This document shows, in pieces, positions 29,675-57,156 of a stretch of 64,000 bases of DNA. How positions within the stretch are numbered: the stretch's first letter is position 1; each line of letters opens with the position of its first letter. The DNA comes from Octopus vulgaris. Taxonomy: Eukaryota. The stretch spans positions 45,694,001 through 45,758,000 of the forward strand of contig OX597819.1 in assembly GCA_951406725.2 (NCBI GenBank), written 5' to 3'. Position numbers and translations under genes: made by a program. Below the pieces are notes generated by a model, which did not search any database, was not told where the DNA came from, and was given only the letters and a program-made list of their open reading frames with translations.

Positions 29675-29859
29675 TTCAGTTCTATATTTAAGAGATGGGG
29701 GATTATGTACATTATTTACATTATTTACATTTGACGGATATTTGTCTCCATCGGGTATTTTGTTAATACAACGTTTCGGATGATATACTCTCCAGCGTTC
29801 ATTAGGTGTCTTGGGGAAATTTCGAACCTGGGTTTTCATTCCTAAGGTATTTTTCGATG

Positions 29860-29894
<35 letters not shown>

Positions 29895-30027
29895 AATAAT
29901 AATAATAATAATAATATCATCATCATCATCATCATCATCATTATTATTCTTCAGGTCACTGCTTGGAATCGAACTAGAAACCTTGGAGTTAGTAGCCCGC
30001 GCTCTTATCTACTACGCCATATGCCCG
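29675..30027 (-). mobile_element. SINE S4: tRNA-like head + (AAT)n + hammerhead-bearing tail
   Basis: Minus strand cgggcatatggcgtagtagataagagcgcgggctactaac..gttcgattcc (A and B boxes), AAT repeat, then the HHR motif; homologous to both arms of 55684-56158. Confidence 0.85.
29765..29810 (-). ncRNA. minimal hammerhead motif (decayed) in SINE S4
   Basis: GACAC-CTAATGA-A-CGCTG-gagagtatat-CATCC-GAAA-CG-TT-GTATT; the three-copy consensus restores CTGATGA and GGCTG/CAGCC. Confidence 0.68.
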
Positions 30028-30167
30028 TGGTCATTTCGCTGCAATTTCTAGATGCTACATACCTCTAAAGGGGTTCCATCCTTGATTTGTTTTGCATGCT
30101 GTTGCAATTTTACTTATTTTACAAACGTTGTTTTTGTTGTTGTTGTTGCTATTGTTGTTGGTATAGT

Positions 30168-54649: not shown

Positions 54650-54914
54650 CCTTTTTATTTGTTTCTGTCATTTGACTGCGGCCATGCTGGAGCACTGCCT
54701 TTAGTCGAACAACTCGACCCCAGGACTTGTTCTTTTGTAAGCCTACTACTTATTCCATCGGCTTTGTTTTGCCGAACAGCTAAGTTATAGGTACGTAAAC
54801 ACACCAACATCAGTTGTCAAGCGTTCGTATGGGGGACAAACGCAGAAGCTCAAACATATACATACATACATACATACATACATACATACATACGTATATA
54901 CATACGTACATACA

Positions 54915-54973
<59 letters not shown>

Positions 54974-55129
54974 TTCTGGTTCCTTTAAGTTTTCGTCCAG
55001 TAAATCCAATCACAAGGGTTTAGTTGGCCCGAGGCTATAGTCGGAGACACTTGCTCAAAGTGCCACGCAGTGAGACTGAACCCGGGACCATGTGGTTGGG
55101 AAGCATGCTACTCACCACACAGCCACACC
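54650..55129 (-). mobile_element. SINE S1 with expanded (TACA)/(TA) centre
   Basis: Colinear with 21780-22200. Confidence 0.88.
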
Positions 55130-55161
55130 TATGTATGCATGTATAAATATATCTAGAGATC

Positions 55162-55312
55162 AAGGCGGCGAGCTCGCAGGATCATTAGCACACCGTGCGA
55201 AATGCTTGGTAAGCATTTCGTCTGTCTTTACGTTCAGAGTTCAAATTCCGCTGGGATTGACTGCACTCGCTCCACCCCTAAATTCCAGGCCTTGTGCCTA
55301 GTGTCGAAAGAA
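55162..55312 (+). mobile_element. SINE S2, internally deleted
   Basis: aaggcggcgagctcgcagga..gttcagagttcaaattccg..ggccttgtgcct. Confidence 0.78.
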
Positions 55313-55683: not shown

Positions 55684-55944
55684 TTTATTTACATTATTTA
55701 TATTATTTACATTTGACGGATATTTGTCCTCCTCTTGGTCAACACAAAGTTTCGGCTGATATACCCTCAGGTGTTTGGGGAAATTTCGAACCTGGGTTCT
55801 CATTTCTTAGGTATTTTTCGATGTTGCTATTATTGTTATTATTATTATTATTAAGGTCACTGCCTGAAATCGAACTCGGAATCTTGTGGTTCGCAGCCCG
55901 CGCCCTTAACCACTAAGCCATATGGCAGTGACCTTAACAATAAT

Positions 55945-55994
<50 letters not shown>

Positions 55995-56158
55995 CAACAA
56001 CATTGAAAAATACCTTAGGAATGAGAACCCAGGTTCGAAATTTCCCCAAGACACTTGATGCTGGCTGGAGGGCATATCAGCCGGAGGACAAATATCCGTC
56101 AAATATAAATAATGTAAATAATGTACGTGACTCCTCATCTCTTAAATATAGAACTGAA
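55684..56158. mobile_element. head-to-head pair of SINE S4 (copy with tRNA head on minus 55684-55923; 5'-truncated copy on plus 55924-56158)
   Basis: Both arms match 29675-30027; junction gccatatggc (55917-55926). Confidence 0.9.
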
Positions 56159-56179
56159 TTATTGTTACATTACAAAGTT

Positions 56180-56420
56180 AAGGCTGCGAGCTGGCAGAAT
56201 CGTTAGCACGCCGGGCGAAATGCTTAGTAGTATTTCGTTTGCCTTCACGTTCTGAGTTCAAATTCCACTCGACTTTGCCTTTCGTCCTTTCAGAGTATAT
56301 AAATTAATTACCAGTGATACATTGGAGTCGATGTAATCTACTAGTCCCCTCCCCGAGAATTTCAGACCTTTAGTAGAAGGGATTATTACATTGCAGAATT
56401 CAGGCCTTTAGTAGAAGAGA
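56180..56420 (+). mobile_element. SINE S2
   Basis: aaggctgcgagctggcagaatcgttagcacgccgggcgaaatgc..gagttcaaattcc. Confidence 0.86.
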
Positions 56421-56737: not shown

Positions 56738-57156
56738 GGCAAAGGAGCGGCTGTGTGGTAAGTAGCTTGCTTACCAACCACATGGTTCCAGGTTCAGTCC
56801 CACTGCATGGCACCTTGGGTAAGTGTCTTCAACTATAGTCTCGGGCCGACCAAAGCCTTGTGAGTGGATTTGGTAGACGGAAACTGAAAGAAGCCTGTTG
56901 TATATATGTATATATATATGTATGTGTGTGTGTATATGTTTGTGTGTCCGTGTTTATCCTACCAACATCGCTTGACACCGATGCTGGTGAGTTTACGTCT
57001 CCGTAACCAAGCGGTTCGGCGAAATAGACGGATAGAATAAGTACTAGGCTTACAAAGAATAAGTACTGGTGTCGATTTGCTCGACTAAAGGCGGTGCTCC
57101 AGCATAGCCGCAGTCAAATGATTGAAACAAGTAAAAGAGTAGAGACAGAGAGAGAG
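56738..57156 (+). mobile_element. SINE S1, intact, flanked by an 80-bp direct repeat
   Basis: Flanks 56659-56738 and 57157-57236 align without gaps. Confidence 0.92.

What the first reader, a model, noticed from the sequence alone, without database searches (positions are those of the whole stretch)
55684..56158. Hammerhead SINE inserted as an outward-facing inverted pair
Seen: an S4 copy retaining its tRNA head on minus is fused at that head to a 5'-truncated S4 copy on plus through the palindrome GCCATATGGC, so both outer ends are 3' ends. The two HHRs have complementary deletions: the left lost TGA plus the 5' strand of stem II, the right lost the GAAAC-stem III segment. Known: an inverted 5'-truncated second copy is a hallmark of PLE integration. 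Inference: structural support for PLE-type mobilisation of S4.
Basis: partly seen in the sequence, partly recalled or inferred. Interest (0 to 1): 0.72.

Follow-up and report, generated by a model that had tools for sequence, protein, structure and literature searches.

The report
Penelope end-repeat pair with tRNA promoter

Summary
The inverted pair is real (55685-56156), but 'S4' is not a SINE. It is the pseudo-LTR (pLTR) of a Penelope/Poseidon-type retrotransposon. Its head follows an RT/GIY-YIG ORF stop (28 of 30 loci), and its body encodes that ORF's N-terminus. In 1.6 Mb sampled blind, 13 of 26 units are head-to-head pairs, against 0-1.8% for three true SINE families. Pairs are single insertions: 23 of 33 have a target duplication around both arms, the arms share subfamily variants, and the 33-nt tail is never on both arms (0 of 59). 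Here, and in 22 of 31 one-tail pairs, the shorter arm carries the tail, which favours two RNA-primed cDNAs over DNA fold-back. The palindrome is a junction by-product. The 'complementary' hammerhead deletions are ordinary decay on opposite strands. Unusual: the pLTR opens with a tRNA-Arg-like block with intact A and B boxes, where 5' ends pile up about 20-fold. Pol III use is inferred; a hairpin stop is the rival. One distant Poseidon relative shows a different tRNA-like block in the same place. This scan reported the same family before on other DNA.

The parts
55685..56156 (.). Whole insertion: two head-to-head, 5'-truncated pLTR copies of a Penelope/Poseidon-type PLE
   Evidence: family context
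55685..55924 (-). Longer arm: head from +4, (AAT)n, body, ending at the inner 3' end without the tail
   Evidence: 8 of 74 head and 6 of 132 body positions differ from the family majority
55853..55924 (-). tRNA-like head (best match tRNA-Arg among 20 host tRNAs sampled)
   Evidence: family majority scores 18; 0 of 500 shuffles reach it
55910..55920 (-). A box (TGGCTTAGTGG)
   Evidence: sequence; fits the Pol III motif quoted in PMC8969392
55866..55877 (-). B box (GAGTTCGATTTC)
   Evidence: sequence
55801..55803 (-). Candidate ATG of the PLE ORF in the left arm; the family body reads as the ORF N-terminus
   Evidence: the start codon itself is inferred
55741..55775 (-). Remnant of the minimal type-I hammerhead, 11-nt deletion (dead)
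55917..55926 (.). Junction palindrome GCCATATGGC: head CATATG plus junction bases; 1-nt overlap at 55924
55924..56156 (+). Shorter arm: starts at head +64, (AAT)n, body, full tail
   Evidence: 11 of 161 body positions differ from the family majority
56050..56083 (+). Remnant of the hammerhead, followed by a 27-nt deletion; core substitutions (dead)
56125..56156 (+). About 33-nt PLE tail, on this arm only
   Evidence: concept from PMC8557442 and PMC11167929
55672..55684 (+). Candidate decayed target-site duplication, left copy (partner 56157-56169, 10 of 13 match; inconclusive)
   Evidence: flanks; one search score not significant for this locus
29675..30030 (-). Second, solo pLTR copy of the same family in this window

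Best explanation
[quoted passage not shown] Shown: the unit is ORF stop - 29 nt - tRNA-like head - (AAT)n - ORF start with hammerhead motif - tail. Shown: pairs are half of all units, carry a 9-15 bp duplication around the whole pair, have arms of one subfamily and never carry the tail twice. Inferred from the Anolis PAc biochemistry (both strands cut and extended, two internal RT start sites, predicted dimer): one cDNA starts at the tail end, the other about 33 nt inside, and they join at 0-5 nt of microhomology. Inferred, about 55%: RNA starting at the tRNA head supplies most templates, so short copies look like a SINE. Both hammerheads at this locus are dead.
For: Head directly after the GIY-YIG ORF end in 28 of 30 loci by BLAST, one being the query locus; the other 2 show a deleted head by eye. 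Upstream ORF gives RVT_1 hits (E 7e-7 and 1e-5, just under the Pfam cut-off) and is 38% identical over 95% to an 836-aa Anolis protein. Body runs on into the ORF start in L261 and in 4 of 4 further loci picked by that junction. It aligns to the N-terminus of homolog P0004: 47%, E 1e-35 for L261, E 1e-10 for a solo body. Blind sample of 160 stretches of 10 kb: 13 head-to-head and 0 tail-to-tail in 26 units; Fisher P below 1e-8 against each control family. Head-selected loci: 17 of 29 paired. Duplication score of 8 or more in 23 of 33 pairs against 1.7% in mismatched flanks. Tail on one arm with the other ending at the inner site in 31 of 59 pairs, on both in 0 of 59; on the shorter arm in 22 of 31. 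Diagnostic site concordant in 21 of 24 pairs, P 6e-4. 5' ends: 12 of 38 blind arms start at -8..+9, about 20 times the rate elsewhere.
Against: No copy that is both complete and intact was seen; the best has a 569-aa open frame. Pfam did not call GIY-YIG on this family's pieces (0 of 6; 0 of 2), so the endonuclease call rests on motif reading and homologs. Rfam calls neither tRNA nor hammerhead. A TGCCC-AC-GGGCA hairpin straddles +1 and could by itself stop RT there. T-run depletion is weak, and G runs are low too. 18 of 39 clean junctions have extra bases rather than microhomology. This locus's own target duplication is not significant.
Confidence: 0.88

Rival explanations
1. Same element and same single insertion, but the tRNA block is a passive captured relic. 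The element is transcribed by Pol II or by read-through, and 5' ends pile up at +1 because the small hairpin there stops RT or primes a fold-back. This is a rival only to the promoter step.
For: The hairpin lies exactly at the peak, and several junctions continue through it. A Pol II-like TATA/Inr motif is described in another pLTR (PMC3846280 passage). Kojima argues that Pol III is too poorly processive for autonomous elements (PMC10886601 passage). G runs are as depleted as T runs.
Against: A and B boxes match the Pol III motif in the family majority while the acceptor stem has decayed. No shared T-run of 4 or more in 1,664 well-covered nt (3.0 expected); 7 private runs against 55.7 expected in 31 kb of aligned copies. 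Other retroelement ORFs give 39 against 46.3 and related PLEs 357 against 268.8. A second PLE has A and B boxes in the same position.
Confidence: 0.4
2. The second arm is a DNA copy of the first: the cDNA folds back on itself (self-priming) and the endonuclease later trims the tail from one arm.
For: Palindromic junctions and short microhomologies (18 of 21 insertion-free clean junctions overlap by 2 nt or more). The arms are of one subfamily. Self-priming and EN-mediated resolution are proposed in PMC3846280 and PMC8557442 (passages).
Against: In 22 of 31 one-tail pairs, and at this locus, each arm holds sequence the other lacks: 5' extension on one, tail on the other. This needs an extra trimming step from the template arm. 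PAc RT starts at two sites that bracket the tail and extends both strands (PMC11167929).
Confidence: 0.25
3. S4 is an independent tRNA-SINE that borrowed a PLE 3' end and is mobilised in trans.
For: Most copies are short and many start at the head. Roughly 45,000 units, of which few reach the ORF (4 of 38 blind arms extend past -8).
Against: The head is a fixed part of ORF-bearing copies. 5' ends run continuously into the ORF (-16, -40, -51, -504). The body is the ORF's own N-terminus. The diagnostic variant was not tested separately in ORF-linked copies.
Confidence: 0.1
4. Two independent insertions, a fold-back/MITE element, or an assembly artefact.
For: A long near-palindrome.
Against: Arm lengths vary freely between loci. 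There are no tail-to-tail pairs. Duplications flank the whole pair. The arms differ by about 10%. Opposite-strand joints also appear in raw RNA reads of a species that holds the repeat.
Confidence: 0.02

Closest known systems
Penelope/Poseidon EN+ PLEs, e.g. PAc of Anolis carolinensis (PMC11167929, parts 1-2 of 4 read) and Pen2a_Av of Adineta vaga (PMC3846280, passages)
   Same: RT followed by a C-terminal GIY-YIG-type domain; pLTR that includes the ORF start and a minimal hammerhead; 30-40 nt tail on one end only; inverted 5'-truncated copy; 8-10 bp TSDs in Adineta.
   Different: The pLTR opens with a tRNA-like block with A and B boxes plus (AAT)n. Pen2a has a putative TATA/Inr motif instead. 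5' ends cluster at the tRNA start.
Helenus, Ajax and Cassandra TRIMs, 'TRIMp3' (PMC10886601, passages)
   Same: A small-RNA-derived Pol III promoter built into the terminal repeat of a retroelement, proposed to arise by SINE insertion.
   Different: Those are non-autonomous LTR elements of 0.3-1.3 kb. Here the repeat belongs to a protein-coding PLE of about 3 kb.
Schistosoma Sm-alpha/Sj-alpha hammerhead SINE-like elements (PMC6765202, passages)
   Same: Pol III-type promoter followed by a hammerhead in a short high-copy repeat.
   Different: Non-coding tandem repeats with canonical active ribozymes; no ORF linkage described in the passages read.
tRNA-derived SINEs (definition in PMC8969392, passage); the three control families here, recalled as octopus OK/OR1/OR2 types (recalled, not tested)
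   Same: tRNA-like head with A and B boxes, 100-500 nt, tens of thousands of copies.
   Different: S4 is contiguous with a coding element at both ends, has no simple-repeat 3' tail, and is paired head-to-head in 50% of units against under 2%.

Membership tests
EN+ PLE, Penelope/Poseidon type | Single ORF with PLE-type RT | tested here: met
   RVT_1 E 7e-7 and 1e-5, under the cut-off; 270 homologs including an 836-aa Anolis protein at 38%; 569-aa open copy
EN+ PLE, Penelope/Poseidon type | C-terminal GIY-YIG endonuclease | tested here: inconclusive
   Motif VY.IPC..G..YKGET at the ORF end; 5 of the 120 listed homologs carry PF01541; no Pfam hit on this family's own pieces
EN+ PLE, Penelope/Poseidon type | pLTR from partial tandems, including the ORF start | tested here: met
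   The same unit lies after the ORF stop and before/over the ORF start
EN+ PLE, Penelope/Poseidon type | Minimal type-I hammerhead in the pLTR | tested here: met
   Core CTGA(T/A)GA..GAAACGTT intact in 40 of 122 arms; stem II folds; no Rfam call; dead at this locus
EN+ PLE, Penelope/Poseidon type | Inverted 5'-truncated copy and one-sided 30-40 nt tail | tested here: met
EN+ PLE, Penelope/Poseidon type | Clade placement against named reference families | tested here: inconclusive
   RT tree groups it with unnamed P0001-P0006 (support 1.0); no Repbase references available; deep nodes weak
tRNA-SINE | tRNA-derived head with A and B boxes | tested here: met
   only 20 host tRNAs of 6 amino-acid types compared
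tRNA-SINE | Non-coding unit separate from its partner element | tested here: not met
   The head is part of ORF-bearing copies and the body is the ORF N-terminus
tRNA-SINE | Pol III transcription from the head | not testable with these tools
   Only unstranded reads were available; no start peak. Indirect: 5' end peak
Retrozyme / Sm-alpha type | Head-to-tail tandem non-coding repeats with canonical hammerheads | tested here: not met
   1 same-strand neighbour pair among 39 blind arms; minimal hammerhead; coding link
MITE / fold-back DNA element | Fixed-length terminal inverted repeats | tested here: not met
   Arm lengths vary freely and half of the units are single arms

The most novel reading that the evidence does not exclude
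A protein-coding Penelope element is transcribed end to end by RNA polymerase III from a captured tRNA-Arg promoter (no shared T-run terminator in the covered sense strand) and sheds tens of thousands of SINE-like copies of its own end. A distant Poseidon lineage (L284) captured a different tRNA-like block at the same pLTR position independently, so Pol III-driven pLTRs are a recurring strategy and a route by which hammerhead SINEs are born.
Probability: 0.3. Interest if true: 0.8.

Novelty: new variant of a known kind. Interest (0 to 1): 0.5.

Why it matters
The inverted pair is textbook PLE structure. Two things matter beyond it. First, a family of about 45,000 copies shows rules that bear on the unresolved PLE integration mechanism: one target duplication around the pair, arms of one subfamily, tail never on both arms and mostly on the shorter one. 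These rules favour two RNA-primed cDNAs and can be tested in the existing PAc in vitro system. Second, a tRNA-type promoter inside the end repeat of a coding retroelement blurs the line between SINE and autonomous element, and would mislead repeat annotation into calling it a SINE. If Pol III makes the coding RNA, it raises the question of how an uncapped retroelement RNA is translated.

Tried and rejected
Rfam scans of the window and of two copies gave no tRNA or hammerhead call, only microsatellite noise. ARAGORN found nothing at default settings; at a lowered threshold it gave an ill-formed fold. 'Complementary' hammerhead halves were rejected: opposite strands, common deletions, no excess in pairs. 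The palindrome as a target site or special signal was rejected. The two-arm query is biased toward pairs and was not used for frequencies; 26 of its loci were pooled into the tail, duplication and subfamily counts. Without them the tail counts are 20 one-tail, 2 no-tail, 0 both, and 16 of 20 on the shorter arm. A same-RNA model in which only one arm can enter the ORF fails: both arms extend past -10 in 7 listed pairs, one probably a self-match and two near-identical loci. T-run depletion in single copies was not significant. RNA: no RNA holder listed; three raw runs from one study of a coded organism were unstranded and showed no start or end peak, so no inference on transcription. A PDB sequence search gave only weak RT hits. 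The search for the recalled name 'Twhin' was irrelevant. Orthologous empty sites could not be inspected: no relatives are held for this genome. No structure or complex prediction was run.

Full report
Observation. The window is G000:C6:45694001-45758000 in a 2.8-Gb animal genome. Its repeats resemble octopus SINEs, which is my recollection and also the wording of earlier scan notes, not a test. The finding is a 472-bp insertion, 55685-56156. The minus arm has a tRNA-like head from +4 (+1 = first G of GGGCATA), (AAT)n and a body. The plus arm starts at +64. They overlap by one G, and the 10-bp palindrome is the head's own CATATG plus junction bases. The left hammerhead lost 11 nt and the right lost 27 nt plus core bases. 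Only the right, shorter arm has the last 33 nt or so. The pair folds as one hairpin (z -23).

What S4 is. Two head-selected loci had protein-coding sequence directly upstream of the head. Searching with that sequence gave 30 loci. In 28 the head follows by BLAST, one being the query locus, and the other two show a partly deleted head in the printout; the ORF stop lies 29 nt before +1. My notebook's '29 of 30' is corrected here. Upstream lies an RT with RVT_1 hits just under the cut-off, then a GIY-YIG-type motif that Pfam did not call. Homologs are 530-1,200-aa RT proteins, including an 836-aa Anolis protein at 38%; that it is PAc itself is my inference. At the other end, the S4 body runs straight into the ORF start in L261 and in four more loci picked by that junction. 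The body translates into the N-terminus of homolog P0004: 47% over 121 aa, E 1e-35; a solo body alone gives E 1e-10. That is the pLTR layout described for PAc, where the ORF starts in the hammerhead and two RT start sites bracket the tail (PMC11167929, parts 1-2 of 4), and for Pen2a_Av (PMC3846280, passages). S4 is therefore the pLTR of a Penelope/Poseidon-type PLE. Most copies are decayed; the best has a 569-aa open frame.

Is the pair typical? I fetched 160 stretches of 10 kb at preset positions. S4 gave 39 arms in 26 units: 13 head-to-head, 0 tail-to-tail. Three control SINE families run through the same pipeline gave 7 of 383 (5 tail-to-tail), 5 of 335 (4) and 0 of 71 (0), with Fisher P of 2e-9 or less. 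This extrapolates to about 45,000 units (30,000-63,000). Head-selected loci gave 17 of 29 and ORF-selected loci 13 of 29, the latter including one likely self-match and one neighbouring copy. The rule misses pairs whose arm starts in the (AAT)n tract, including this locus, so these are lower bounds.

One event or two? Of 33 pairs with both ends defined, 23 have a flanking duplication scoring 8 or more, mostly 9-15 bp, against 1.7% of mismatched flanks. This locus has only a 10-of-13 candidate. Arms share non-majority bases at 7.8 per kb against 3.2 in 2,000 permutations, none of which reached it (25 pairs). The T/A site in the hammerhead core agrees in 21 of 24 pairs (P 6e-4; 3 pairs with a gap dropped). 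Among 59 pairs the tail is on one arm with the other ending at the inner site in 31, on neither in 2, and on both in 0; 26 have an arm ending elsewhere. These pools include loci from the pair-biased first search; without them the counts are 20, 2 and 0.

Mechanism. In 22 of 31 one-tail pairs the tail is on the shorter arm, in 8 on the longer, and 1 is equal; a few junction calls are rough. Each arm then holds sequence the other lacks, as here. The simplest reading is that both 3' ends of a staggered cut prime RT on element RNA, one at each start site, and the cDNAs meet head to head. Of 39 clean junctions, 21 have no extra bases and 18 of these overlap by 2-5 nt; 20 of 59 were set aside as unclear. 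This is inferred from PAc, which cuts and extends both strands and is predicted to be a dimer. Fold-back with later trimming (PMC3846280 and PMC8557442, passages) remains possible. Both arms can reach deep into the ORF, so two RNAs or multi-tandem RNAs are needed.

Hammerheads. The family core fits the minimal PLE ribozyme with a palindromic stem III (PMC4209133, part 1 of 4). It is intact in 40 of 122 arms, and deletions of 5 nt or more hit 6 of 62 paired and 8 of 60 solo arms. Opposite-strand arms cannot complement in one RNA, so the deletions are decay.

The tRNA block. The family head best matches a host tRNA-Arg(TCG) among 20 tRNAs of six amino-acid types, fetched from 34 hits (score 18; maximum of 500 shuffles 13). 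A and B boxes fit the Pol III motif (PMC8969392 passage) while the cloverleaf has decayed. Of 38 blind arms, 12 start at -8..+9, 4 extend further and 22 start later, about a 20-fold higher stop rate at the head (ends entered by hand, one split copy merged). A small hairpin at the same spot is an equally placed alternative cause. No T-run of 4 or more is shared by copies over 1,664 nt (3.0 expected), and copies hold 7 against 55.7 expected, but G runs are low too (10 against 40.3) and single-copy shuffles were not significant. Sixteen other retroelement ORF stretches gave 39 against 46.3, and 65 related PLE loci 357 against 268.8, ten of them zero. This is weak support. RNA reads were unstranded and gave no start peak. 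I put Pol III initiation at the head at about 55%, and Pol III synthesis of the coding RNA at about 30%.

A second case. Of 37 relatives from metagenome contigs with sequence past the ORF end, one (L284) has A- and B-box motifs, an AAT-rich stretch, a hammerhead and the next ORF in the same order. Its head is unlike S4's, Rfam does not call it, and it falls outside this family's clade on an RT tree with weak deep support. Its unit has two T-runs, both just past the hammerhead (5.6 expected). It is a single contig and a lead only.

What is known. The inverted copy, tail and hammerhead are standard PLE features (PMC8557442 passages). The nearest precedents for the promoter are the non-autonomous Helenus, Ajax and Cassandra LTR elements (PMC10886601 passages) and the schistosome hammerhead SINEs (PMC6765202 passages). 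PMC7229834 and PMC6962438 (passages) added nothing. Nine searches showed no paper describing a tRNA-headed pLTR. Subscription journals, Repbase and Dfam were not searchable and I read no supplements, so the family may be deposited under another name. Earlier notes of this scan reach the same reading on other DNA of this genome and of another genome. I had recorded my reading before seeing them, and they are not independent support.

Verdict. New variant of a known kind; interest 0.5.

Noticed in passing
L284:2815-3030 (metagenome contig): Tandem Poseidon-type PLE outside this family's clade with a different tRNA-like A/B-box block ending in CCA between ORF stop and hammerhead; possible independent tRNA capture in a pLTR.
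   Followed up: partly
window 29675-30030 (-): Solo full pLTR copy of the same family, with head, tail and a mutated hammerhead.
   Followed up: partly
L032:1336-2682: Complex insertion with at least four pLTR arms and a 520-nt ORF end in nested inverted arrangement.
   Followed up: partly
L077:2047-2831: Five further tandem copies, about 150 nt apart, of the ORF end plus head start; looks like repeated template jumping.
   Followed up: no
L068, L070, L071 (G000:C1 7.9-9.1 Mb): Three near-identical (99%) ORF-bearing insertions within about 1 Mb, likely segmental duplication rather than recent transposition.
   Followed up: no
L058:1770-1850: A tRNA-Ala-like gene (by eye) lies about 200 nt downstream of a head-only copy.
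   Followed up: no
family body, positions about 240-260: A 9-nt GTAAATAAT unit varies in copy number at the inner 3' end, keeping the ORF frame; it coincides with the inner RT start region.
   Followed up: no
L153:5022-6182 (-): A second, divergent PLE family in this genome with a Pfam GIY-YIG hit; its pLTR was not examined.
   Followed up: no
window 54653-55133 (-), 56740-57136 (+), 55162-55310 and 56176-56400 (+): Copies of two of the control SINE families flank the finding; one begins 20 nt after the right arm.
   Followed up: partly
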